Below are positions 7,398 through 64,000 of a stretch of 64,000 nt of DNA, piece after piece. The DNA comes from Candidatus Woesebacteria bacterium (GTDB lineage: Bacteria; Patescibacteriota; Microgenomatia; UBA8517): NCBI GenBank assembly GCA_963784785.1, contig CAWASW010000007.1:66394-130393 (forward strand), given 5' to 3'. Made by a program: the position numbers and the translations under genes. The notes under the pieces are model-generated. The model was not told the origin of the DNA, did not search any database, and saw only the letters and a list, made by a program, of their open reading frames with translations. Position 1 is the stretch's first letter. Every line of letters starts with the position of its first letter.

Positions 7398-8557
7398 ATT
7401 TTTAAAGTGTCACTTATTTTGACTTTGTATTTTATACTTCTGTAATAAGCAATAATCACCAAATTAACTAAAAATGTAGATAGCAACAATATAATCAAAT
7501 ATTGCCATCCAGCAGAAGTAAATCTTGGAAGTTCAGTCTTAGATAAGTATCCCATGATTCCTGACACAACTCCAATACTGGTAATGAGTTGCAACGATTT
7601 TATACTGTTATTTAAACTCTGATTTTCTATATCAGTTAATACTGACAAAACGTTTTTAACGTAATCTCTGGTCATGGACCAAACCTCTTTTATGTAAGTT
7701 AACGTATTTACCAAAGTCTCAAATTTATAGTCAAACACCTTTTGTAAATGTTCTTCCAATCCTAATTCGCTTGAAATCACCTGTCTAGTTTTGATGTACG
7801 ACCCCATCTGGTTTATTCTATTGTTTATAATACTGATAGTTCTATCATAACTATCAAGTTTAGATCTATTTTTGACTATTTCGCTGCCTTTAATACTTCC
7901 ACTGTCTTTAATATGAGTAATTTCTTCCCATATCGTTCTGTGTATATTCAAATATTTCTCTAACTGATCTTTGAACTCCCTAAAAAATATTTGCATCTCA
8001 ACTAAATTTGAAGCGTCCTTAAATTGAGTTTTTGTCACAGCCAAAACTATATAATTTGCAGTTTTAAAAACTGTGAATTTATCAGAATTAATTGTTGAAT
8101 AAACTTCCCCAAAAATCGATTCATCAACTTTGTAATCCTTGGGGCTCTTTGTCTGCACAACAACAACCGTCGGATGTTCAAGTTTTATATTTGCCAAAAC
8201 TTTTGGAGTTGGGGCTCCTAGAGAAAAAATATAAGATACTGCAGGATTTAATGTGTTCAAATAATAATTTTTGAGTTTCTCTCTTGATAACTCTATGTCA
8301 TCAGAGTCAAATTCAAGTAAATATAATCCATCTTCGTAATATTTTATAGATATTCCATTGCCATTCGTAGCATGTACATATTCAAGATATCCATTTTCTC
8401 TGGTACAGGTTGAGACATCTAAACTTTTTCTAAAAGCATCCAGTTGGTTCTGATCCAAAGGGAGTTTCGAAATCCCTTTATGTAAAAAGTCATATATCTC
8501 ACTTAAATGAAGTGTCGTCCGCTGATACCACCCCCCATAGAAAATCTTGTATTTCAT
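7394..8557 (-). CDS. CorA-like putative divalent-cation transporter with a degenerate GMN motif
   Basis: Soluble N-domain, long helical region and two C-terminal TM helices; GIMGY sits where CorA has YGMNF. It is the first gene of the metal ABC operon. Confidence 0.4.
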   Translation of the reverse strand: MKYKIFYGGWYQRTTLHLSEIYDFLHKGISKLPLDQNQLDAFRKSLDVSTCTRENGYLEYVHATNGNGISIKYYEDGLYLLEFDSDDIELSREKLKNYYLNTLNPAVSYIFSLGAPTPKVLANIKLEHPTVVVVQTKSPKDYKVDESIFGEVYSTINSDKFTVFKTANYIVLAVTKTQFKDASNLVEMQIFFREFKDQLEKYLNIHRTIWEEITHIKDSGSIKGSEIVKNRSKLDSYDRTISIINNRINQMGSYIKTRQVISSELGLEEHLQKVFDYKFETLVNTLTYIKEVWSMTRDYVKNVLSVLTDIENQSLNNSIKSLQLITSIGVVSGIMGYLSKTELPRFTSAGWQYLIILLLSTFLVNLVIIAYYRSIKYKVKISDTLKI

Positions 8558-55906: not shown

Positions 55907-56674
55907 ATGATGTATATAATGGCATCATTAAAATCAAGAAATCTTCTAATCTTAGGTCTCATTCTAGCAATGTTTGTTGCCCTTCCACTTTTTGTCTGGT
56001 CATTAATTAATATAAATTTGGATATCAGAGAGAGAGCTTTTATACCTCAATGTATGCCACGGCCAGCTTGTCTTGATGAAAGACCTCATCCATGTCAGAT
56101 ATCAGAACCAGAAGCTGGTTGGTGCCCTGCTGGTACTGCCACCGCAGTTTCTACAGCCACTGCAATTGCAACAGCAACATCAATTGCAACTTCGACAGCA
56201 ACAGCATTACCAACAGATAGTCCAGTTGGAGGAAATGATAATGCAAATTCTTGTGGAGGAACCTGTGGCAGTAATTACAACTGTAAAGCAAATTTATATT
56301 GCTATAGAGGGTACTGCAGAAATCCATTCTGTTCAGAAAATAGCACCTGTGACTGTTCAAATGTTGGTGCTACTCCAACTGTTAAACCAACAGTTAAACC
56401 AACTGTCAAGTCATCAATCAAACCATTTGCAGGTCTTAGTTCATCAAGCCCAAAGACAACTGCAAAATCGACATCTGTTGCATCAGAATCATCTCGACCA
56501 TTAGACAAATTTAATACAGATTCTGTTACAACCCCTAAAAACATGTTTTGGTTAAATAACGCAATGTATATCTTCTTAGGATTCTTGTTACTTGTCATCA
56601 CTACAATTTATTATGCTGTAAAAAGAAACAAGAGTAATAGTATTCCCCGAATAATGCCACCTACAAATATCTAA
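55907..56674 (+). CDS. Cys-rich membrane-anchored surface protein, paralog of 13752-14810
   Basis: Signal anchor, Thr/Ala-rich linker, module SCGGTCGSNYNCKANLYCYRGYCRNPFCSENSTCDCS, C-terminal TM. Confidence 0.6.
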   Translation: MMYIMASLKSRNLLILGLILAMFVALPLFVWSLININLDIRERAFIPQCMPRPACLDERPHPCQISEPEAGWCPAGTATAVSTATAIATATSIATSTATALPTDSPVGGNDNANSCGGTCGSNYNCKANLYCYRGYCRNPFCSENSTCDCSNVGATPTVKPTVKPTVKSSIKPFAGLSSSSPKTTAKSTSVASESSRPLDKFNTDSVTTPKNMFWLNNAMYIFLGFLLLVITTIYYAVKRNKSNSIPRIMPPTNI

Positions 56675-56732
56675 TTTATTATGTTAGAATAGGTCTCAAT
56701 GTTTAATTTGGAAGGAGGCGAGTTTTCAATAT

Positions 56733-56927
56733 ATGTTTATAGTAACAAAAAAACAAGGAGAGTCAGACGACTCATTAGTAGCAAGATTTCGCAAAAAGAC
56801 TTTAATGTCTGGTCTTTTGTTGGAGCTTAGAGACAGAGAAAGATTTAAGAAACCTTCTGAAAAAAGAAAAGAGAAGAAATACAAACTTAACTTTGCCAGA
56901 ATGTTGGAAAAGAAAAGAAACTATTAA
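56733..56927 (+). CDS. rpsU: 30S ribosomal protein S21
   Basis: ~64 aa basic; SLVARFRKK...LLELRDRERFKKPSEKRKEKK matches the S21 pattern. Confidence 0.75.
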   Translation: MFIVTKKQGESDDSLVARFRKKTLMSGLLLELRDRERFKKPSEKRKEKKYKLNFARMLEKKRNY

Positions 56928-56929
56928 AA

Positions 56930-57355
56930 ATGGAAAACAATAAACTCGTTGTTAACCCTGCGCAAGAATATGTTAATAGTCTTTTTACTGAATCCTTGAT
57001 TGGGAACAATAATAAATTAGTTCTTGTAGATGGAAAATATAAAGATATAGAAATTAAACAACTGTGTCTTAAAAGTTCTGATGAAAAAATACATCCGGTA
57101 TCTATAGCTGAAAATTTAGTTTTGGTCGGTCTTGTAGATGAGCCTGTTGAGTTTTCTGATATTATTTGGAATAGTGAATCAGCAACACCAATTAAGCTAA
57201 AGGAGGCTGTCGAACAAGGTAGATTGCCAAAAGATTCGAAAAAAGGTGTCTTGGCAATAGTTGCCACAGCTGAGAGAATTAAAGGGACAAGTCAATTTGA
57301 CATAAATAATAAAGTGTTTGAGGAACAAAAAAAGATTGAGAAATTATTAAAATGA
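56930..57355 (+). CDS. Hypothetical protein
   Basis: ORF between rpsU and secE. Confidence 0.4.
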   Translation: MENNKLVVNPAQEYVNSLFTESLIGNNNKLVLVDGKYKDIEIKQLCLKSSDEKIHPVSIAENLVLVGLVDEPVEFSDIIWNSESATPIKLKEAVEQGRLPKDSKKGVLAIVATAERIKGTSQFDINNKVFEEQKKIEKLLK

Positions 57356-57534
57356 AGACAGCCGTCAATTTTCTCACTGAAGTCAAACCTGAGCTTGAAA
57401 AAGTCACTTGGCCAAAACGAAATGTCGTGATAAACTACCTAGGTCTAGTTATAACTATATCTGTAGTTGTAGCATTTTTTGTAGGAAGTGTAGATTACGG
57501 TCTTACCAAGGGTTTAGAATATTTTTTAAAATAA
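57352..57534 (+). CDS. secE: Preprotein translocase subunit SecE
   Basis: 60 aa, single C-terminal TM, KVTWPKR motif, immediately upstream of nusG. Confidence 0.8.
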   Translation: MKTAVNFLTEVKPELEKVTWPKRNVVINYLGLVITISVVVAFFVGSVDYGLTKGLEYFLK

Positions 57535-57540
57535 GATAAT

Positions 57541-58149
57541 ATGAACGACGAACTAAAAATTAACGAGAAAGGTACTGGAAACAAAAAGATTCCAGGACAT
57601 ATCATTATTACTGCCTCAGAAGATCCAAAGGCAAAATGGTATGTAGTTCACACATCATCTGGTCATGAAGTTCGTGTCATGGAAACATTAAGACAAAGAG
57701 TAGAAACAATGGGACTTAAAACCACTGTTTTTGAAATGTTAGTCCCTACCCAAGACAAAATTATCATAAGAGGTGGAAAAAAGGCACAAGTAAAAGAAAA
57801 GATTTTTCCAGGATACATGCTTGTTAAAATGATATTAGATGATGCAACCTGGCTTGCAGTAAGAACAACAGCAGGAATCACAGGATTCGTCGGAGCAGGA
57901 AATAAGCCTACTGCCCTATCTGAAGTAGAAGTTAAAAACATTCAAAAATTCGTAAGCTCACCTGCACCAAGATACAAAACAAAATTTGTTACAGGAGAAG
58001 CAGTCAAGATTACAGACGGACCTTTCTCAGATTTCTTAGGAACAATTCATGAAATTGACGAAGAAAAAGGAAAAGTCAAAGTATTGGTCTCAATCTTTGG
58101 AAGAGAAACACCTGTAGAATTAGACTTCTTGCAAATCCAAAAGATTTAG
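57541..58149 (+). CDS. nusG: Transcription termination/antitermination factor NusG
   Basis: NGN domain (KWYVVHTSSGHE) and KOW domain (GEAVKITDGPFSDFLGTIHEID). Confidence 0.9.
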   Translation: MNDELKINEKGTGNKKIPGHIIITASEDPKAKWYVVHTSSGHEVRVMETLRQRVETMGLKTTVFEMLVPTQDKIIIRGGKKAQVKEKIFPGYMLVKMILDDATWLAVRTTAGITGFVGAGNKPTALSEVEVKNIQKFVSSPAPRYKTKFVTGEAVKITDGPFSDFLGTIHEIDEEKGKVKVLVSIFGRETPVELDFLQIQKI

Positions 58150-59015
58150 ATTCCTATTTTCCAAACTCCTTTTTCTCTAAATGCAGGGATTGTTTGCCTC
58201 TTTGCTAAATTAAAAATACTTGATGATTTATCATTCTTTTTCTTAGCATAATCAGAAAGCGAAATAATTTTTAAGCCTTTTAAATACGCAATTCTTTTGT
58301 GTAGTGATTCTAGCAAAGCTTTGCTTATTATCTCAATCATAGTCTTTATCCTTTTTGTTTCGTTGTATTCATTAAATGCATAATAATAATTAATTTTTTC
58401 CTTGTTCTTTACTATAATGTTTGGAAATCCGAGATTGGAAAGCATAAAATTAATCAACACTCTACCAATCCTACCGTTACCATCATTAAAGGGATGAATT
58501 GATTCGAACTCTAAATGAAATTCACTTATTTTATCCAAAAAATATTTATTATGATTACTCGTATAATTTACTAATAATTCACCAATCAAACTCGCTATTT
58601 TATCAGGATTTGAACCAATATGAGTTCCAACTCGTACATATTCGTTATTGTTTCTAAATCTCCCAGAAATATTTAAATTAATATTCTCTAAAAGCATTTT
58701 GTGAATAAACAACATCAAATCTATATTTAATTCTAATTTGTTTCTATCTTTTAGATATTTAAAAATTCTGGCCAGGTTCTTAGCCTCGAAGACTTCGCGC
58801 AAGTTTAGATCTCTTGAAATCTCATGTTCCATAAGTATTTTCTCAGTTTCTTTTAATGTAAGTGTTGAATTTTCAATTGCGTTGGAGTTGTATACACTAT
58901 CTGCAATTTCAGCTTCGTCAATCAAATTAAGAAGTGACTCTTTACCCAGCTTTAATTTGTCAAATTCTTTCTTTAATTCCTCAATTTGAGATTTCCTAGT
59001 ATTTCCAAGTGTCAT
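58146..59015 (-). CDS. Class II Fic-domain protein (putative auto-inhibited AMPylase)
   Basis: Fic motif HPFNDGNGRIGR; inhibitory-helix-like SNAIEN ([S/T]xxxE[G/N]) lies N-terminal to it in the same polypeptide. Confidence 0.85.
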   Translation of the reverse strand: MTLGNTRKSQIEELKKEFDKLKLGKESLLNLIDEAEIADSVYNSNAIENSTLTLKETEKILMEHEISRDLNLREVFEAKNLARIFKYLKDRNKLELNIDLMLFIHKMLLENINLNISGRFRNNNEYVRVGTHIGSNPDKIASLIGELLVNYTSNHNKYFLDKISEFHLEFESIHPFNDGNGRIGRVLINFMLSNLGFPNIIVKNKEKINYYYAFNEYNETKRIKTMIEIISKALLESLHKRIAYLKGLKIISLSDYAKKKNDKSSSIFNLAKRQTIPAFREKGVWKIGI

Positions 59016-59053
59016 ACAAGAAGAATAGCATACTCACGTAATTTTGTCAAATT

Positions 59054-59097
59054 GACGTGAATTTATGTCGTTTCCAACTTAAATTCACGTCGTTTTT
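59054..59097 (+). promoter_or_regulatory. Perfect 12-bp inverted repeat (gacgtgaattta ... taaattcacgtc) followed by a T-run, between the Fic start and rplK
   Basis: Seen directly; could be an operator for Fic or a leader hairpin/attenuator for rplK-rplA. Confidence 0.4.
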
Positions 59098-59185
59098 AGG
59101 TTCGCAATGACACTAGATTATAAGTTTATGTCTATGTTATAATACCAGTACCTCGATATTTATCGAGGGAGATTATATAAATCGA

Positions 59186-59611
59186 ATGGCAAAGAAAATT
59201 AAAGTAATAGTTAAAATTAACCTCAAGGGAGCAGAAGCTACCCCAGCACCTCCAGTCGGAACTGCACTTGGACAACATGGTATTGCAATCATGGAGTTTG
59301 TCAAAGCATATAACGACAAGACCAAAGACATGAAGGGACAAGTTATTCCAGCAGTTATCACCATTTTTGAAGATAGAAGTTTTGATTTTATAATCAAAAA
59401 GGCTCCAATGTCAGTAATGATCAAAAAGGTTTTAGGTTTAGAAAAAGGATCTGGAACTGCAGGAAGAGCAACACATGCAACAATGACAAGAGCACAAGCA
59501 GAAGAAGTAGCAAAAGAAAAGATGGACGATTTAAACACCAAAGACTTAGACGCAGCAGTTAAAATAGTCGCAGGAACAGCAAGATCAATGGGAATCAAGG
59601 TAGAAGATTAA
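59186..59611 (+). CDS. rplK: 50S ribosomal protein L11
   Basis: PAPPVGTALGQHGIAIMEF motif. Confidence 0.9.
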   Translation: MAKKIKVIVKINLKGAEATPAPPVGTALGQHGIAIMEFVKAYNDKTKDMKGQVIPAVITIFEDRSFDFIIKKAPMSVMIKKVLGLEKGSGTAGRATHATMTRAQAEEVAKEKMDDLNTKDLDAAVKIVAGTARSMGIKVED

Positions 59612-59687
59612 TAGCAAACTAGATAACTAGATGAATAGTTTTTTTCTAATTATCTAATAATCTATTTATCTAATTAACTAAACCAAT
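59612..59687 (+). repeat. Conserved upstream element (family copy B), ending at the rplA start codon
   Basis: aaactagataactagatgaatagtttttttctaattatctaataatctatttatctaatt. Confidence 0.6.
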
Positions 59688-60497
59688 ATGGGGAAAACTA
59701 AAACAGCTAAATTAACAGATACAGCTAAAGTTACTAAAACTTCTGCTGAAGAATATGCTGAAAAGAAAGCAAAGAAGGCTGCATTACAAAATAAAGTAGA
59801 AAAAGTATCAGAGGTAATAACAAATGAGGTACCAAAAGTATCAGAAGTATCAAAAGTAGAAACAGAACAAGAACCAGAAGTTCCAAAAAGAAAAGAGAAG
59901 ATTTTAACTATTTCATCTCGTGGTAAAAAATACTTAGAATCAAAATCAAAGGTTTCCAAAGCAAATCTTTACAAAATTGAGGATGCAATCAAGGCTGTTA
60001 AAGAATCAAGCTACTCAAAATTTGATGGTACAATGGAACTACATTTAAATGTCAAAAAGACGGGTATAAATGTTCAAACCACTCTTCCATTTTCAACCGG
60101 AAAACAAAAAAGAATTGAAATTGCTGATGAAAAAACATTAGCAAAGCTTAAAGAAGGAAAAATTGACTTTGATTTACTTCTTACAACTGCAGAAATGATG
60201 CCAAAACTAGCTATGTTTGCAAGACTATTAGGTCCTAAAGGATTAATGCCAAATCCTAAAAATGGAACAGTTATAAAGTCAGTTAAAGACGTCGAAAAGT
60301 TTAAAGGTAACATGATTACACTTAAGACTGAGAGAGAAGCTGCTTTAATTCATACATCATTTGGAAAAGTATCACAGAAACAAGAAGAGCTTGTAACCAA
60401 TGCTGAAGCCATTTTAACAGCCCTTGGAGGATCAAAGTCTATAGTTAGAGCTTTCATGAAGTCAACAATGAGTCCTTCAGTTAAAATAACTATCTAA
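59688..60497 (+). CDS. rplA: 50S ribosomal protein L1 (with ~60-aa Lys/Glu-rich N-terminal extension)
   Basis: L1 core (…LLGPKGLMPNPK.GTV…). Confidence 0.9.
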   Translation: MGKTKTAKLTDTAKVTKTSAEEYAEKKAKKAALQNKVEKVSEVITNEVPKVSEVSKVETEQEPEVPKRKEKILTISSRGKKYLESKSKVSKANLYKIEDAIKAVKESSYSKFDGTMELHLNVKKTGINVQTTLPFSTGKQKRIEIADEKTLAKLKEGKIDFDLLLTTAEMMPKLAMFARLLGPKGLMPNPKNGTVIKSVKDVEKFKGNMITLKTEREAALIHTSFGKVSQKQEELVTNAEAILTALGGSKSIVRAFMKSTMSPSVKITI

Positions 60498-60738
60498 CTT
60501 GTTGCTTCATTATTCTTAATACTCTTCTGTTTGCCATCTCGATTTTTTCGTAATCTGCTTTAGTAACTTTAAATCCAGACTCTACACCTACACAATTATC
60601 TGGATATCGTAGTATTAGGGTGGATTAATCTAAGATTATATGATTGATAACTTTTACCAAAATATTTTTTTCCTGCCTAGTTTGCAATGTTGCATCAAGA
60701 TTTTGAAATTTATCAACCATATTACATTTTTTTGATTT

Positions 60739-61176
60739 TTATTTATTTTGCAAATCTTTCAAAGCCTCGCCACCGACATCGTCATGATCCGTAGGAAACC
60801 AGTTTACTCCGTCATCAGAACCAAGTGTTACGGGTACAACACCATGCGAACCTGTCGCATCTGATGTTAGAAAGGTACATGTATGACTGTAAACAACAGT
60901 CGATTTTTCCCCTGGCTGACTAAGTAATATTTCTTTTAATTTGTTTGAAGGTATACCGCCCCTTATATTCCAATTTACTGACTTCGATACAGAACTATTA
61001 GGATCATATTGATTTTTACAATCTCTAGACAAAGAACATCCTATGCACCCCTTTTTTGCGTACTTGGTTCTACAAAAAACGCTTCTACGGCCTTTGCCAT
61101 CACCAATGTCAGTTTTTCCAACCCATGTATTGACTAAATTTGTAAATGTCAACTGCGGATCAAATTGTTCTATCAT
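60739..61176 (-). CDS. Hypothetical Cys-containing protein inserted between rplA and rplJ on the opposite strand
   Basis: ORF; no motif recognised. Confidence 0.4.
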   Translation of the reverse strand: MIEQFDPQLTFTNLVNTWVGKTDIGDGKGRRSVFCRTKYAKKGCIGCSLSRDCKNQYDPNSSVSKSVNWNIRGGIPSNKLKEILLSQPGEKSTVVYSHTCTFLTSDATGSHGVVPVTLGSDDGVNWFPTDHDDVGGEALKDLQNK

Positions 61177-61244
61177 CTTAGAGCTGATATTACAGATGTT
61201 TAAATTATTTTTCTTGAGTTCTTGTTGAGTAAAATAGGCAGAAG

Positions 61245-62060
61245 TTGTATACTATGGATATGACTGAGGCTGATTACATCTGTTTTTTGGCAAAAAATGT
61301 TACTTTAGGCCATTACCAAAATGATGGTTTTTATGTTGTTCCTAAGTATATAAACCATCCAAAATCTGTCTATTTCCCTGACCTTAATTATTCTTCTAAA
61401 TTCTGGAGTTTAATCTCAAAATGTAAAGCAAGAGATTTAGGTGATAAATTTCCAAAAGTTGCAGTTTTAGAAGTAGATTCAAAAATTGATTCCAAAAAAT
61501 CGAAAAGGATTACTTATAGGGATATAACTTTTGATTTGCTCGAAACAGAATATGGAACAATAGGAAGTTTTAATAAGTACATGATGACAAACAGAATAGG
61601 CAACTCAGAACAAGAATTTGAAAAAACTTTTACCCTAATGACACTTCTACTTAAAAGTAAAGAGAGAGGAGAAATAGGAGATGTTGTGTGGCACAAGAGA
61701 AATGCTGTCATTGAATATTTATTTGGTAAATTTAAAACAAAAGAATCAATGGAACTTGCAAAGAAAAGCGAAAAATATTTAGAAAAACTTGGATTTAGCA
61801 ACAAAATTCAACTTCCTAAGCTTAAAAATTTAACAAGACAAGAAGAAGATGTCCTAAATTTACTTCAAGAAAATAATGGAAATATTGTTTCATTTGATAA
61901 AATGGCAGAGGTTTTGTGGAGAGAAAATTCAGACGATAAATTCTCACTTGAGGCCATGGCAAAAGTAATTGAAAATGTAAGAAGAAAAATTAAAGATACT
62001 GGAATAAACAAAGAACTAATCTTCACCAAAAGAGGCAGTGGATATATATTAATTACTTGA
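61245..62060 (+). CDS. Transcriptional regulator with C-terminal OmpR/PhoB-type winged-helix domain and an unknown N-terminal domain
   Basis: C-terminus LTRQEEDVLNLLQENNGNIVSFDKMAEVLW...KVIENVRRKIKD...IFTKRGSGYIL fits the trans_reg_C pattern; no receiver domain. Confidence 0.55.
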   Translation: MYTMDMTEADYICFLAKNVTLGHYQNDGFYVVPKYINHPKSVYFPDLNYSSKFWSLISKCKARDLGDKFPKVAVLEVDSKIDSKKSKRITYRDITFDLLETEYGTIGSFNKYMMTNRIGNSEQEFEKTFTLMTLLLKSKERGEIGDVVWHKRNAVIEYLFGKFKTKESMELAKKSEKYLEKLGFSNKIQLPKLKNLTRQEEDVLNLLQENNGNIVSFDKMAEVLWRENSDDKFSLEAMAKVIENVRRKIKDTGINKELIFTKRGSGYILIT

Positions 62061-62093
62061 TTTTATATTTACAAAAGTATTATTATTTATTTA

Positions 62094-62303
62094 ATGACCT
62101 CATTAGTTTATAGGGATTTTTTAACTAATACTTCTGTGGCATGGTTTACTGCTGGAGTTATAACTCCAATTTTTATTGAAAAAATATCAAAGCGAGATTT
62201 ATTAAATAGCATTATCGCGATAATCATGTTTGTGGTATTCTTAAGAGTAGCAAGAGTTCTAGAAACGAACGAGAAAGGAAAAGTAAATGATAAATCAAGA
62301 TAA
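62094..62303 (+). CDS. Small hydrophobic ORF (low confidence)
   Basis: ORF only. Confidence 0.25.
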   Translation: MTSLVYRDFLTNTSVAWFTAGVITPIFIEKISKRDLLNSIIAIIMFVVFLRVARVLETNEKGKVNDKSR

Positions 62304-62538
62304 AATATTATTTGCATATAGCATAGGTGTAATAATGAGCGCAATAATAATTGTTTATATATATTTTGATGTTTTCAAGAAGAAACACAAAAAATGAATT
62401 TAAATATTGAAAATACTGTATACATACTTGCAGGGATATCACTAGTTATTATATTCTGGATAATCCATAAAATGGATCAGGAAGTTAAAAATTAATCTTC
62501 ACCAAAAGAGGAAGTGGGTATTTACTTGTTAGATAATT

Positions 62539-62712
62539 ACCCTAATGTTCTTGATCCTTCGCGTACAGGCTGCTTAGGTGCCTCTTTTGTATTCTCCATT
62601 CTTTTCTTAATCTCATCTTTTGTGTAAGAATCATTTTTTTCACCTTGACCTGCTTCAATTATTCTAATCCTTCCATCAGGGTCTGTCGTTGTTGTCTTTG
62701 TTGGTGTCATTT
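62539..62712 (-). CDS. Small ORF (57 aa) with a strong SD
   Basis: aaggaggtgatttgtaaATG; MTPTKTTTTDPDGRIRIIEAGQGEKNDSYTKDEIKKRMENTKEAPKQPVREGSRTLG; not in the ORF track. Confidence 0.3.
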
Positions 62713-62803
62713 ACAAATCACCTCCTTGATTTTCATAATGAATATAATATAATACAATCTGTCCTAAGAAAACAAGCAGCATCTTATTTTAGAAGCGCAA
62801 GTC

Positions 62804-63337
62804 TTGTCGAGGAATATGAACAGAATAAACAAAACAGATTTAATAACTAAGCTTTCTCCTAAGCTTAAAAGTGCTTCCTCAATTGTCTTTGTAAATTTTG
62901 CTGGTTTATCCGTTGGTCTTCAACAGAAATTAAAATTACAGCTTAAAGCTATAGGATCAGACATGACAGTTGTTAAAAACACCCTCATAAAGCTTGCAGG
63001 GAAAGAAGCAGGTCTAGCAGAAGAAGTATTAACAGATGAAGTACTATCAGGTCAAACTGCACTCATTATGACTGAAGGAGATTCAGTAGCTCCAATCCAA
63101 GTTTTAGGAAAATTTGTTAAAGAAAACCAAGTACCAAACTTCAAAGTAGGTATAATCGATGGCAAATTCCAAGGAAAAGAAGCATTACTTAAGATTTCAA
63201 CCTTACCTACAAAAGAAACTTTATACAGTCAAGTTGTTGGTTCTTTGATGTCACCAATGTACGGATTGGTAGGCACACTAAATGGAAATATGCAGAAACT
63301 AGTGTATATTCTGAAGGAGGTGAGTACACGTGGCTAA
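62804..63337 (+). CDS. rplJ: 50S ribosomal protein L10
   Basis: L10 family pattern; followed by rplL with an 8-nt overlap. Confidence 0.9.
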   Translation: MSRNMNRINKTDLITKLSPKLKSASSIVFVNFAGLSVGLQQKLKLQLKAIGSDMTVVKNTLIKLAGKEAGLAEEVLTDEVLSGQTALIMTEGDSVAPIQVLGKFVKENQVPNFKVGIIDGKFQGKEALLKISTLPTKETLYSQVVGSLMSPMYGLVGTLNGNMQKLVYILKEVSTRG

Positions 63338-63719
63338 CAAAGTAAATGAATTAGTAGAAGAAATTTCAAAACTCACAGTTTTAGATTTATCAGAACTTGT
63401 TACTGCACTTCAAGATAAACTTGGAGTTTCAGCAATGCCAGTAGCAGCAGCAGCTCCAGTAGCAGCAGCCGCAGCCGGCGATGCTCCAGCAGGAGAAGCA
63501 TCTGGTGGAAACCAAACTGTAGTAATGACAAATTCAGGAGCAACCAAAATTGCAGTTATTAAAGCTTTGAGAGAAATCAATCAAACTTTAGGACTTAAAG
63601 AAGCAAAAGATGCAACCGATAACGTTCCATTTGAGGTTCTTAAAGATGCAAAACCTGAAGATGTTAAATCAGCAGTCGAAAAGTTAAAGGCAGCTGGTGC
63701 AACAGTAGAGTTAAAATAA
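63330..63719 (+). CDS. rplL: 50S ribosomal protein L7/L12
   Basis: Ala/Pro-rich hinge and C-terminal domain ending KLKAAGATVELK. Confidence 0.9.
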   Translation: MANKVNELVEEISKLTVLDLSELVTALQDKLGVSAMPVAAAAPVAAAAAGDAPAGEASGGNQTVVMTNSGATKIAVIKALREINQTLGLKEAKDATDNVPFEVLKDAKPEDVKSAVEKLKAAGATVELK

Positions 63720-63755
63720 GAGTATTAGTTAATTAGTATCTTAGAAAAACAGAAA

Positions 63756-63779
63756 AGCCGCTCGAAAGGGCGGTTTTTT
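63756..63779 (+). terminator. Rho-independent terminator after rplL
   Basis: 6-bp stem with a GAAA tetraloop (ccgctc GAAA gggcgg) followed by T6. Confidence 0.75.
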
Positions 63780-63815
63780 GTGCCTACAAATAATCACACC
63801 TCCGAGGTGTGATGT

Positions 63816-64000
63816 TTAGGAGATACGTGAGAGGAGATAGTCAGAAAAGGCCTTAAGTTCAGGTGAAGTCCTCGCGTCTGGCTCAATTCCTGGGCCTTTA
63901 TTAACCTCAATGATATAAATCTTTCGAGTCAACTTCTCAATTGCCAAATCAACACCTGCAATATCGAGTCCCAAAATGGCTGCAGACTTCAATGCAATTT
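63816..64000 (-). CDS. ATP-grasp (RimK-like) ligase, C-terminal part (partial; continues past the window edge)
   Basis: Revcomp translation ...IALKSAAILGLDIAGVDLAIE...KIYIIEVNKGPGIE... matches the ATP-grasp C-terminal subdomain. Confidence 0.55.
   Translation of the reverse strand, partial: IALKSAAILGLDIAGVDLAIEKLTRKIYIIEVNKGPGIEPDARTSPELKAFSDYLLSRIS

What the first reader, a model, noticed from the sequence alone, without database searches (positions are those of the whole stretch)
57352..63719. Universally conserved secE-nusG-rplK-rplA-rplJ-rplL locus carries opposite-strand insertions including a class II Fic protein
A 289-aa Fic-domain gene sits on the opposite strand between nusG and rplK. 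It carries the HPFNDGNGRIGR Fic motif and an intramolecular SNAIEN inhibitory-helix-like motif N-terminal to the Fic core (class II architecture, i.e. auto-inhibited). Between rplA and rplJ there is a further ~2.3-kb block: an opposite-strand 145-aa Cys-containing hypothetical, a 271-aa regulator with an OmpR-type winged helix but no receiver domain, and tiny ORFs. This block includes a duplicated remnant of the regulator's C-terminus (…LIFTKRGSGYLLVR* at ~62470-62520 vs …LIFTKRGSGYILIT* at 62020-62060). A perfect 12-bp inverted repeat plus T-run (59054-59097) lies between the Fic start and rplK. Insertions into this operon are rare in bacteria. A Fic AMPylase embedded among translation/transcription-factor genes suggests a target in that machinery (speculative).
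Basis: partly seen in the sequence, partly recalled or inferred. Interest (0 to 1): 0.68.

Follow-up and report, generated by a model that had tools for sequence, protein, structure and literature searches.

The report
Self-regulated Fic gene in operon-boundary hotspot
In this Woesebacteria (CPR) genome, the extra genes among the ribosomal-protein genes sit between separate operons, at junctions that vary from genome to genome across the lineage, and the Fic gene is a self-contained cassette carrying its own promoter and operator, so the finding is real but ordinary.

Summary
The interpretation needs revising.

- **Source:** a Woesebacteria (Microgenomates/CPR) MAG.
- **Where the insertions lie:** across 80 related loci, three junctions are hypervariable: rpsU|secE, nusG|rplK and rplA|rplJ. 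They exceed 500 bp in about half of the genomes, and the cargo is almost never the same. secE|nusG, rplK|rplA and rplJ|rplL stay tight. The insertions therefore lie between transcription units, not inside an operon.
- **Age of the Fic insertion:** it is not a one-off. It is shared, in the same orientation, by a monophyletic set of genomes in a sub-clade. It is absent from the nearest Fic-less relatives.
- **No link to translation:** outside that sub-clade, 82 family members sit in unrelated contexts. That gives no support for a target in the translation machinery.
- **Class:** Fic is class II. SNAIEN aligns on FICD's TVAIEG, and HPFNDGNGRIGR is canonical.
- **The inverted repeat:** it is neither an rplK nor a nusG signal. 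It is the Fic gene's own operator and is conserved with the gene in every context, with rigid geometry: two inverted boxes, then the −35, a third box, the −10, and an apparently leaderless ATG.
- **Likely mechanism:** a predicted 40-residue C-terminal winged helix probably binds the operator. Experimentally characterised Yersinia CccR works this way.
- **rplA–rplJ block:** it holds an orphan ORF, a Microgenomates-specific wHTH protein and a genuine gene remnant.

The parts
56733..56927 (+). rpsU (ribosomal protein S21), the upstream core gene of the cluster
   Evidence: Called as PF01165 on the identical contig L001. Conserved in relatives.
56930..57355 (+). hyp141, an orphan 141-aa ORF inserted between rpsU and secE on the same strand, tightly packed against both
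   Evidence: No Pfam or PADLOC hit. It is the only member of its family among 5.8e9 proteins. Absent from all 80 related loci.
57352..58149 (+). secE-nusG transcription unit. This junction is never broken in relatives.
   Evidence: SecE PF00584 1e-15; NusG TIGR00922 197.6 bits against a cut-off of 135.7. The SecE|NusG gap is at most 112 bp in 78 loci.
58146..59015 (-). Class II Fic (AMPylase-type) gene, 289 aa, convergent with nusG. The two stop codons overlap.
   Evidence: PF02661 5e-19. FICD 9e-19 over residues 19-234. AF2 model pLDDT 82.8, pTM 0.85. Foldseek hits to FICD, BtFic and CdFic. PADLOC PDC-S04 4e-33 and SoFic 1.3e-27.
58869..58886 (-). Inhibitory-helix motif S44-N-A-I-E48-N49, matching (S/T)xxxE(G/N)
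   Evidence: Aligned on FICD TVAIEG. YNSNAIENSTLT is invariant in 49 family members.
58461..58496 (-). Catalytic Fic motif H174-PFNDGNGRIG-R185
   Evidence: Read from the sequence. Aligned on FICD HPFIDGNGRTSR. Invariant in the family.
58152..58268 (-). C-terminal small domain (residues 250-288), predicted beta-alpha-alpha-beta-beta winged helix. It is the candidate binder of the operator.
   Evidence: DSSP on the AF2 model, pLDDT 86-94. N..A(K/R)RQTIPAFREKGVWKIG is nearly invariant. No sequence match to known HTH families.
59022..59050 (-). Fic promoter: -35 TTGACA (59050-59045), 17-nt spacer, -10 TATTCT (59027-59022), then 6 nt to the ATG, which suggests a leaderless mRNA
   Evidence: Promoter scan, 10/12 matches with a TG. 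The same layout is conserved upstream of Fic in about 60 loci.
59031..59039 (-). Operator box 3 (ACGTGAGTA, one mismatch to the GTGAA core), inside the promoter spacer
   Evidence: Box 3 starts 23-24 nt after box 2 in 47 loci. Sequence.
59054..59091 (.). Operator boxes 2 and 1: a perfect 12-bp inverted repeat (gacgtgaattta N14 taaattcacgtc) immediately upstream of the Fic -35.
   Evidence: Sequence. Conserved with the Fic gene in unrelated contexts. Arms of at least 9 nt occur in 67 of 82 loci against 12% of shuffles. The core-to-core span is 32-33 bp in all 47 complete loci, and 32 bp in the window.
59135..59172 (+). Inferred rplK promoter and leader: extended -10 TGtTATAAT (59135-59143) and hairpin CCTCGA-N6-TCGAGG (59151-59168) followed by GAGAT
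   Evidence: Read from the sequence. The equivalent hairpin CCAC-N-GTGGAAGAT lies upstream of rplK in relatives with an empty site and in L007. The hairpin folds weakly, z = -2.0. This is an inference.
59186..60497 (+). rplK-rplA transcription unit (L11, L1). Its internal junction is tight in relatives.
   Evidence: The L11|L1 gap has a median of 10 bp in 73 loci.
60739..61176 (-). orf145, an orphan ORF divergent from the wHTH gene
   Evidence: No Pfam, NCBIfam or PADLOC hit. Only itself at E<1e-10 among 1.84e9 representatives. The analogous divergent ORFs in L003 and L251 are not homologous.
61245..62060 (+). wHTH271: an N-terminal domain of about 190 aa of unknown function plus an OmpR/PhoB-type winged helix, with no receiver domain. 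The public annotation starts at ATG 61260 (266 aa).
   Evidence: PF00486 6e-12 at residues 195-269. PDB hits cover only the wHTH. The family has 55 members, and those named are Microgenomates. It occupies the same gap in L251, L003, L011, L007, L254 and L255, and sits elsewhere in L253 and L256.
62094..62397 (+). Two small hydrophobic ORFs (69 aa at 62094-62303; 36 aa at 62287-62397) between the wHTH gene and the remnant
   Evidence: ORF list and gene calls on L001. 62395-62527 is shared with L002.
62489..62536 (+). Remnant of the last 15 codons plus stop of a second wHTH allele (KLIFTKRGSGYLLVR*)
   Evidence: (D2). It is 90% identical to the 3' end of L251's intact gene and 79% to the window's own gene. 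The same remnant stands alone in L249 and L002.
62726..62753 (+). rplJ promoter TTGATT-N16-TATAAT, conserved whatever the cargo upstream
   Evidence: Promoter scan 10/12. Homology with L249, L002 and L003 resumes at about 62726-62748.
62804..63719 (+). rplJ-rplL transcription unit (L10, L7/L12)
   Evidence: The L10|L12 gap is at most 157 bp in 60 loci.

Best explanation
The window comes from a Woesebacteria (CPR) genome. In this lineage the secE-nusG, rplKA and rplJL transcription units stay adjacent, but the spaces between them, and the space between rpsU and secE, act as hypervariable accessory-gene hotspots. The inserted genes do not interrupt any transcription unit, and rplK and rplJ keep their own promoters and leaders.

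The occupant of the nusG|rplK hotspot is a single-gene, portable cassette with these parts:
- a sigma-70-type promoter
- a three-box operator: two inverted GTGAA-type boxes spanning 32-33 bp just upstream of the -35, and a third box in the spacer
- an apparently leaderless ATG
- a compact class II Fic enzyme carrying its own inhibitory glutamate helix
- a roughly 40-residue C-terminal winged helix

The most likely mechanism is as follows. Fic dimers bind the widely spaced inverted boxes through the C-terminal domains and repress their own promoter. This keeps an auto-inhibited AMP-transferase at a low level until a trigger, possibly phage infection, releases it to modify a cellular target. Yersinia CccR works this way, and the SoFic / PDC-S04 class of Fic proteins is linked to defence.

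The cassette entered the nusG|rplK site once in an ancestor of a Woesebacteria sub-clade. It has since diverged quickly and been lost several times.

The rplA|rplJ hotspot holds a lineage-specific receiver-less wHTH regulator with a divergent orphan ORF, small membrane-type ORFs, and a remnant of an earlier wHTH allele. That block is the product of replacement and deletion.

**Shown:** hotspot statistics, class II features, conservation and geometry of the operator, lack of contextual linkage, monophyly.
**Inferred:** DNA binding by the C-terminal domain, repression, toxicity or a defence role, the target.
For: **Hotspots**
- Gap sizes were measured in 80 loci.
- Junction control: SecE|NusG, L11|L1 and L10|L12 stay tight. 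S21|SecE, NusG|L11 and L1|L10 exceed 500 bp in 33/53, 33/75 and 34/60 loci.
- The cargo is almost all singletons. It includes AbiEii/AbiEi, PDC-S01, mad2-like methyltransferases and an IS1595 transposase.
- The rplJ promoter is conserved whatever the cargo.

**Fic class II**
- Sequence alignment to FICD and family invariants.
- AF2 model and fold matches.

**Cassette and operator**
- The same architecture lies upstream of Fic in PIN/DnaB, MreB and AAA_14 contexts and in 80 metagenome loci at 46-62% identity.
- Inverted-repeat arms of at least 9 nt occur in 67 of 82 loci against 12% of shuffles.
- At least 3 copies of one GTNAA core occur in 52 of 82 loci against 3.5% of shuffles.
- The spacings are rigid: 32-33, 6-7 and 23-24 nt.
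- The half-site variant changes in concert within a locus: GTGAAT, GTTAAT, GTGAAA or GTAAAT.
- No other gene travels with Fic.

**C-terminal domain**
- A beta-alpha-alpha-beta-beta domain at pLDDT 86-94 with near-invariant residues.

**Precedent**
- CccR is class II, has a C-terminal HTH and represses its own promoter through 10-bp inverted repeats 26 bp apart (PMC9755527).
- Fic-HTH fusions were already proposed to regulate fic expression (PMC2686095).

**Defence link**
- PADLOC PDC-S04 4e-33 and SoFic 1.3e-27.

**History**
-.
Against: - DNA binding by the C-terminal domain is not demonstrated. It has no sequence similarity to any Pfam or PDB HTH.
- The isolated-domain model was poor, pLDDT 62.
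- Residue-operator co-variation could not be separated from phylogeny.
- The window's own promoter has a weak -10 (TATTCT) and a mismatched box 3.
- The defence assignment rests only on HMM hits to a candidate family. The NCBIfam SoFic equivalog scores 35 bits against a cut-off of 550.
- The best solved match is FICD, a regulatory AMPylase/deAMPylase rather than a toxin.
- The host tree and the Fic tree are neighbour-joining trees on few characters and differ in detail within the clade.
- Fic is only 74-77% identical between genomes whose NusG is 95% identical. This could also reflect allele replacement.
Confidence: 0.65

Rival explanations
1. One reading: Fic was placed among translation and transcription genes because it modifies a component of that machinery. 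The position is functional.
For: A sub-clade keeps Fic at nusG|rplK in the same orientation in at least five genomes. From general knowledge, the Fic-fold toxin Doc phosphorylates EF-Tu, so a translation target is not implausible in itself.
Against: 82 of 84 further family loci are not near nusG or ribosomal genes. The nusG-linked genes are monophyletic, so one insertion event explains the shared position. Close relatives have lost the gene. In other genomes the same gap holds unrelated cargo.
Confidence: 0.07
2. The inverted repeat plus T-run is mainly an intrinsic terminator on the + strand. It would stop secE-nusG read-through, which runs antisense to Fic, before rplK.
For: The + strand RNA folds at -17 kcal/mol (z = -3.7) and is followed by GUUUUU. 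nusG and Fic have overlapping stop codons with no terminator between them. An A-run flanks box 1 in 22 of 47 loci.
Against: - The repeat accompanies Fic whatever lies upstream.
- It has fixed spacing to the Fic -35 and a third box inside the promoter.
- The half-site sequence, not merely the pairing, is conserved and is repeated in the third box.
- The loop is 8-14 nt, and the terminator scan did not call it.

A secondary terminator role remains possible.
Confidence: 0.15
3. The operator is bound by a separate host regulator, not by Fic. The C-terminal domain would serve substrate recognition or dimerisation.
For: The C-terminal domain has no detectable sequence relationship to HTH families. 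In EcSofic the C-terminal domain regulates toxicity (PMC12249575).
Against: No second gene is conserved next to the cassette. The half-site variants differ between loci, which requires a co-varying binder encoded in cis. The CccR precedent also argues against it.
Confidence: 0.15
4. The Fic protein is a physiological AMPylase/deAMPylase switch like FICD or EfFic, acting on a host chaperone or another protein. It is neither a toxin nor a defence gene.
For: The best sequence and fold matches are to FICD. The inhibitory Glu, which in FICD supports deAMPylation (general knowledge), is invariant. No antitoxin or partner gene is present.
Against: The gene is patchily distributed, fast-evolving and hotspot-located, and its neighbours in equivalent gaps include AbiE and other defence candidates. 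It hits PADLOC PDC-S04 and SoFic. Tight autorepression is typical of toxins.
Confidence: 0.25

Closest known systems
CccR of Yersinia pseudotuberculosis (Fic-HTH toxin and transcription factor; PMC9755527)
   Same: [quoted passage not shown] Both genes are preceded by two inverted boxes with an unusually long spacer in their own promoter. CccR has 10-bp arms with N26; here the arms are 12 bp with N14 and the cores span 32-33 bp. Autorepression is demonstrated for CccR.
   Different: CccR is 380 aa with a roughly 100-residue HTH domain, is secreted by a T6SS and AMPylates FtsZ. The protein here is 289 aa with a roughly 40-residue beta-alpha-alpha-beta-beta domain and no detectable sequence similarity in that domain. 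It has a third box, and sometimes a fourth, overlapping the promoter. There is no secretion context, and binding and target are untested.
SoFic / PADLOC PDC-S04 (single-gene Fic anti-phage systems and candidates)
   Same: Both are single-gene class II Fic proteins. HMM hits are PDC-S04 4e-33 and SoFic 1.3e-27. The gene is located in a variable region next to other defence-type cargo.
   Different: The SoFic match covers only the Fic core (profile positions 58-282 of 361). The NCBIfam SoFic equivalog is far below its cut-off, 35 against 550 bits. No AS1-like small gene lies downstream; nusG is there instead. PDC-S04 is only a candidate family.
Human FICD/HYPE, BtFic (3CUC) and CdFic (4X2E): class II Fic structures
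   Same: These are the best sequence and fold matches. The inhibitory helix and catalytic loop align residue for residue.
   Different: FICD has a TM segment and TPR domain and acts on BiP. None of these is described with the operator cassette seen here.
Core-gene-flanked integration hotspots / defence islands (concept from E. coli and other pan-genomes; general knowledge)
   Same: Conserved flanking core genes, highly variable cargo that differs between close relatives, and enrichment in TA, Abi and methyltransferase genes.
   Different: The flanks here are the secE-nusG, rplKA and rplJL units of a streamlined CPR genome. No integrase, tRNA or att-type repeats were found at the junctions. I did not find this hotspot described, but the literature search was limited.
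OmpR/PhoB-family response regulators (for the 271-aa protein)
   Same: C-terminal Trans_reg_C winged helix. PDB hits are to DrrD, ArlR and PcoR effector domains.
   Different: There is no receiver domain. The N-terminal 190 residues match nothing. The family has 55 members, and those named are Microgenomates.

Membership tests
Fic/Fido (PF02661) | Profile match above the curated threshold | tested here: met
   69.4 bits against a cut-off of 24, E=5e-19.
Fic/Fido (PF02661) | Catalytic motif HxFx(D/E)GNGRxxR with the His intact | tested here: met
   HPFNDGNGRIGR at residues 174-185. Aligned on FICD HPFIDGNGRTSR and invariant in 49 relatives.
Class II Fic (intramolecular inhibition, N-terminal alpha-inh) | (S/T)xxxE(G/N) motif on the same chain, N-terminal to the Fic core | tested here: met
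   S44-NAI-E48-N49 aligned on FICD TVAIEG. Invariant in the family.
Class II Fic (intramolecular inhibition, N-terminal alpha-inh) | The inhibitory Glu contacts the second Arg of the Fic motif and blocks productive ATP binding | not testable with these tools
It needs a structure, or the activity of an E48G mutant.
CccR-like autoregulated Fic-HTH | [quoted passage not shown] | tested here: inconclusive
   The AF2 topology is beta-alpha-alpha-beta-beta at pLDDT 86-94. There is no Pfam or PDB sequence match, and the isolated-domain model was poor.
CccR-like autoregulated Fic-HTH | Widely spaced inverted repeats in the gene's own promoter | tested here: met
   59054-59065 and 59080-59091, adjacent to the -35. 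Conserved in 67-73 of about 82 loci with a fixed 32-33 bp span.
CccR-like autoregulated Fic-HTH | The protein binds those repeats and represses transcription | not testable with these tools
   Requires EMSA or footprinting and reporter assays.
SoFic anti-phage system | Protein matches the SoFic model at family level | tested here: not met
   The PADLOC SoFic hit (1.3e-27) covers only the core, profile positions 58-282 of 361. The NCBIfam equivalog NF046030 scores 35.3 bits against a cut-off of 550.
SoFic anti-phage system | Confers phage resistance by abortive infection | not testable with these tools
   No cultured host is available. It would need heterologous expression and phage challenge.
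PADLOC PDC-S04 (candidate single-gene system) | HMM match to the PDC-S04 models | tested here: met
   PDLC04836 4e-33, residues 40-233 on profile positions 29-226 of 244. The family itself is only a candidate.
Class I Fic toxin-antitoxin (FicT/FicA, VbhT/VbhA) | A separate small antitoxin gene supplies the inhibitory helix | tested here: not met
   The inhibitory motif is in cis. No conserved neighbouring small ORF exists.
OmpR/PhoB response regulator (271-aa protein) | N-terminal receiver (Response_reg) domain | tested here: not met
   Only Trans_reg_C at residues 195-269. PDB matches are limited to the effector domain.
Intrinsic terminator (for the inverted repeat) | GC-rich short-loop hairpin followed by a U-run, at the end of a transcription unit | tested here: inconclusive
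   A hairpin of -17 kcal/mol plus GUUUUU on the + strand. The stem is AU-rich and the loop is 8-14 nt. The scan did not call it. Its position is fixed relative to the Fic promoter, not to upstream genes.
Known cis-regulatory RNAs of ribosomal-protein operons (L10, L1/L11 leaders in Rfam) | Covariance-model match upstream of rplK or rplJ | tested here: not met
   There is no such hit at E<=1 in 56000-64000. The only hit is a sub-threshold rli51 match inside rplJ.

The most novel reading that the evidence does not exclude
In streamlined CPR genomes the boundaries between the essential secE-nusG, rplKA and rplJL units may serve as the lineage's main 'safe-harbour' exchange sites. Accessory and defence genes would be swapped there by homologous recombination through the ultra-conserved flanks.

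In the sub-clade that keeps Fic at this site, its position may have become functional in two ways. The gene overlaps convergently with nusG. Its operator lies about 20-40 bp upstream of the inferred rplK promoter. Together these could couple expression of an auto-inhibited AMPylase to transcription of growth-rate-controlled genes, through antisense interference or through shared operator occupancy.
Probability: 0.12. Interest if true: 0.6.

Novelty: new member of a known kind. Interest (0 to 1): 0.33.

Why it matters
The result turns an apparent oddity, a toxin-like gene inside a universal operon, into two ordinary and useful facts.

First, in Woesebacteria the boundaries between the secE-nusG, rplKA and rplJL units are recurrent accessory-gene hotspots. 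This helps when reading CPR genomes and when looking for their defence repertoire. It also warns against guilt-by-association inferences at such sites.

Second, a large and very uniform family of compact class II Fic proteins (8000 scored database hits, the cap of the search) carries a recognisable promoter/operator signature with rigid geometry. That gives a directly testable case of a one-polypeptide 'toxin + inhibitor + repressor' module like CccR, in organisms that cannot yet be cultured.

No long-standing question is opened by it.

Tried and rejected
- **Rfam scan of 56000-64000 at E<=1.** It found no L10, L11 or L1 leader. The only hit was a sub-threshold rli51 match inside rplJ, judged to be chance.
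- **Viral contig scan with the Fic alignment.** Nothing closer than 28% identity, so there is no evidence the cassette is phage-borne.
- **Residue-operator co-variation.** Mutual information and inspection of the C-terminal domain by half-site class gave clade-level trends (IPAFREKG with GTGAAT, IEAFLEKG mostly with GTGAAA). These were confounded by phylogeny, so the test is inconclusive.
- **Pfam scan of five isolated C-terminal domains at E<=10.** No HTH family.
- **Profile of 33 C-terminal domains against PDB sequences.** Only chance hits.
- **AF2 of the isolated 50-residue tail without an alignment.** pLDDT 62 and pTM 0.24, unusable, so no fold search was run on it.
- **afdb50 fold search.** The library was unavailable.
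- **Small ORFs upstream of Fic in L249/L251 and L252 as a possible conserved partner or antitoxin.** They are not homologous.
- **orf145 against the analogous divergent ORF of L003.** No similarity.
- **Mobility signatures.** I looked for flanking direct repeats or an integrase at the Fic insertion by aligning occupied and empty sites. None was seen.
- **Literature.** I found no description of this hotspot or of Fic in Patescibacteria.

Full report
**1. What is there**

In order along the window:
- rpsU (56733-56927)
- an unannotated 141-aa ORF (56930-57355)
- secE (57352-57534)
- nusG (57541-58149)
- a 289-aa Fic gene on the opposite strand (58146-59015)
- rplK (59186-59611)
- rplA (59688-60497)
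- a 145-aa ORF on the opposite strand (60739-61176)
- a 271-aa protein with a C-terminal OmpR-type winged helix and no receiver domain (61245-62060)
- small ORFs
- rplJ (62804-63337)
- rplL (63330-63719)

The 12-bp inverted repeat at 59054-59065 and 59080-59091 is perfect and is followed by GTTTTT. The duplicated 3' end of the regulator gene is real: 52 nt at 79% identity. It encodes KLIFTKRGSGYLLVR-stop and is preceded by an in-frame stop, so it is a true remnant. An identical contig exists in a public run. The titles of the closest genome records place the sequence in Woesebacteria (Microgenomates, CPR).

**2. The insertions lie at operon boundaries that are hotspots throughout the lineage**

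I fetched 80 NusG-centred loci from species-representative genomes and mapped the window's proteins onto them.

| Junction | Range or median | Loci above 500 bp |
|---|---|---|
| nusG\|rplK | 4 to 4512 bp | 33 of 75 |
| rplA\|rplJ | 6 to 6079 bp | 34 of 60 |
| rpsU\|secE | median 766 bp, up to 6674 bp | 33 of 53 |
| secE\|nusG | never above 112 bp | 0 |
| rplK\|rplA | median 10 bp, two exceptions | 2 of 73 |
| rplJ\|rplL | never above 157 bp | 0 |

From general knowledge of E. coli, the loose junctions are the boundaries between the classical transcription units secE-nusG, rplKA and rplJL. No operon is actually interrupted.

The window fits this picture. It keeps a promoter-like TTGATT-N16-TATAAT upstream of rplJ that is conserved in relatives whatever lies upstream. 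It also has an extended -10 and a leader hairpin upstream of rplK. That hairpin corresponds to the CCAC-N-GTGGAAGAT hairpin of relatives with an empty site.

The ORFs filling the gaps are almost all singletons across genomes. They include AbiEii/AbiEi, PDC-S01, mad2-like methyltransferases, an IS1595 transposase, AAA_14/DUF4143, and sugar and NUDIX enzymes. The statement that insertions here are rare is true of bacteria in general. It is not true of this lineage.

**3. History of the Fic insertion**

The two closest species representatives without Fic, L002 and L003 (NusG 93-94% identical), have 54-73 bp between nusG and rplK. However, the closest Fic proteins in the databases lie at exactly the same place and in the same orientation:
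- P0003 (74%) on contigs L249-L251
- P0007 (76%) on L252
- the 75% homologue in L007

A neighbour-joining host tree (NusG + L11) places the window beside L249/L251. L002, L003 and others without Fic are interleaved. In a Fic tree the nusG-linked genes form one clade, separate from homologues in other contexts. The simplest reading is one old insertion followed by several losses.

Fic has diverged far faster than its flanks. It is 74-77% identical between genomes whose NusG is 95% identical. Allele replacement therefore cannot be excluded.

**4. No contextual link to translation outside that clade**

Homologues at 67-73% identity lie next to a PIN toxin and DnaB, next to MreB and a peptidase, or between AAA_14/DUF4143 genes. 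None of 80 further family loci from metagenomes (46-62% identity) has nusG or a ribosomal gene within the fetched flanks. The family was not found on viral contigs. Genomic position therefore gives no evidence about the target.

**5. The Fic protein**

- It aligns over residues 19-234 with human FICD. SNAIEN lies on TVAIEG, the inhibitory helix with Glu234, and HPFNDGNGRIGR lies on HPFIDGNGRTSR.
- In 49 relatives both motifs are invariant.
- The AF2 model is confident (pLDDT 82.8, pTM 0.85). It matches FICD, BtFic, CdFic and SoFic.
- Class II architecture is confirmed at the sequence and fold level.
- PADLOC models PDC-S04 (4e-33) and SoFic (1.3e-27) match the core. The curated NCBIfam SoFic equivalog is far below its threshold. 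I therefore do not file the protein as SoFic.

**6. The inverted repeat is the Fic gene's own operator**

Upstream regions of Fic genes from four unrelated contexts share this layout:

GTGAATTT - N~16 - AAATTCACGT - N3-5 - TTGACA - N7 - CGTGAAT - N - TATAAT - 6 nt - ATG

Measurements across about 82 loci:
- The best inverted repeat has arms of at least 9 nt in 67, against 12% of shuffles.
- One GTNAA core occurs at least three times in 52, against 3.5% of shuffles.
- In the 47 loci with the complete pattern the two inverted cores span 32-33 bp.
- In those loci the -35 usually starts 6-7 nt after box 2, and box 3 starts 23-24 nt after box 2.
- The window fits this geometry with a 32-bp span. 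Its box 3 has one mismatch and its -10 is weak.

The half-site sequence differs between loci (GTGAAT, GTTAAT, GTGAAA, GTAAAT), but all boxes in a locus change together. This argues for a specificity determinant encoded in cis. Fic is the only gene that always accompanies the boxes.

The -10 is usually followed by 6 nt and then the ATG. This suggests a leaderless mRNA.

**7. Who binds it**

Residues 250-288 are predicted as beta-alpha-alpha-beta-beta at pLDDT 86-94. Their sequence, N..A(K/R)RQTIPAFREKGVWKIG, is nearly invariant. This topology is that of small winged-helix domains.

Sequence searches found no known HTH family. The isolated-domain model failed. Co-variation with the operator was confounded by phylogeny. 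Binding is therefore an inference.

The literature supports it:
- Kinch et al. noted Fic-HTH fusions that might regulate fic expression (PMC2686095).
- Yersinia CccR is a class II Fic with a C-terminal HTH. It was shown to repress its own promoter through 10-bp inverted repeats 26 bp apart, matching a 70 Å separation of the DNA-binding helices in the dimer (PMC9755527).

The cassette here works like CccR on present evidence, in a smaller format.

**8. The terminator alternative**

The repeat folds well as RNA on both strands. On the + strand it is followed by a U-run. nusG and Fic have overlapping stop codons with no terminator between them. A secondary role in stopping nusG read-through is therefore possible.

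Four observations argue against this as the primary role:
- The repeat's position is fixed relative to the Fic promoter in every context.
- There is a third box.
- The half-site sequence itself is conserved.
- The loop is long.

**9. The rplA|rplJ block**

- **orf145** has no relative at E<1e-10 among 1.84 billion representatives.
- **The 271-aa protein** belongs to a family of 55 proteins. The few that carry names are from Microgenomates.
- Members down to 34-39% identity occupy the same gap in L251, L003, L011, L007, L254 and L255. Two others lie elsewhere.
- In every case examined the gene is preceded by divergent, mutually non-homologous small ORFs.
- Contigs carrying the identical Fic protein differ in this block. 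L251 has the wHTH gene. L249 and L250 have only its last ~50 nt, directly after rplA.
- The window's remnant is closer to L251's gene end (90%) than to the window's own gene (79%). It is shared, with its upstream small ORF, by L002.

The block is therefore the product of replacement and deletion in a hotspot. Why the 3' fragment persists is unexplained.

**10. Verdict**

It is wrong on rarity in this lineage, on recency, on the meaning of the inverted repeat and on the functional inference from position.

The Fic cassette is a new, compact member of a known kind, the autoregulated class II Fic-HTH proteins and Fic-type defence candidates. The hotspot behaviour is the familiar core-flanked island pattern in an unusual place.

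Interest is modest. The operator signature and the CPR hotspot map are useful and testable, but nothing here challenges current understanding.

Noticed in passing
window 56930-57355 (+): A 141-aa ORF is wedged between rpsU and secE, and its stop overlaps the secE start. It is an orphan, the only member of its family among 5.8e9 proteins, and is absent from all 80 related loci.
   Followed up: partly
window 59015-59027 (-); loci L082, L085, L087, L099 and most of L089-L168: In most family members the Fic -10 hexamer is followed by only about 6 nt before the ATG, with no Shine-Dalgarno sequence. This suggests leaderless Fic mRNAs.
   Followed up: partly
window 62489-62536; L249 (reverse-complement coordinates 7480-7531); L002 8800-8860: The last ~45 nt of the wHTH gene persists as a free-standing fragment in relatives that have lost the gene, and as a second copy in the window. 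The break points are similar. The reason for its retention is unexplained; a recombination site or a regulatory signal are possibilities.
   Followed up: partly
L249/L250 versus L251 (Hainich groundwater contigs): Contigs that encode the identical Fic protein differ by presence or absence of the whole wHTH gene plus its divergent ORF between rplA and rplJ. This looks like a very recent indel polymorphism within one population.
   Followed up: partly
L059 11033-18908; L062 3083-6746: The two Amesbacteria loci have 7.8 kb and 3.6 kb between rplK and rplA. These are the only breaks of that otherwise tight junction among 73 loci.
   Followed up: no
L067 3810-4564: The nusG match is split into two pieces, query residues 3-183 and 166-202, about 100 bp apart. 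This suggests a duplication, an insertion or an assembly problem inside nusG.
   Followed up: no
window 59688-59900 (+), repeats 59789-59863: Ribosomal protein L1 carries a roughly 60-residue Lys/Glu-rich N-terminal extension containing imperfect 33-nt repeats. The bacterial L1 equivalog scores below its cut-off (120 against 216 bits).
   Followed up: no
L253, L254, L255, L256 and window 60739-61244: Every member of the receiver-less wHTH family that I examined is preceded by divergently transcribed small ORFs of 70-147 aa. These have no Pfam hit and, where compared (window against L003), are not homologous. This may be a regulator paired with a variable small-protein module.
   Followed up: partly
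L255 8361-9515: A second, longer (384 aa) Trans_reg_C protein lies just downstream of rplL in the same locus that has the wHTH gene between rplA and rplJ.
   Followed up: no
window 62814-62903 (+): A sub-threshold Rfam hit to Listeria rli51 (30.4 bits against a gathering score of 48, E=0.03) lies inside the 5' end of rplJ. It is most likely chance.
   Followed up: no
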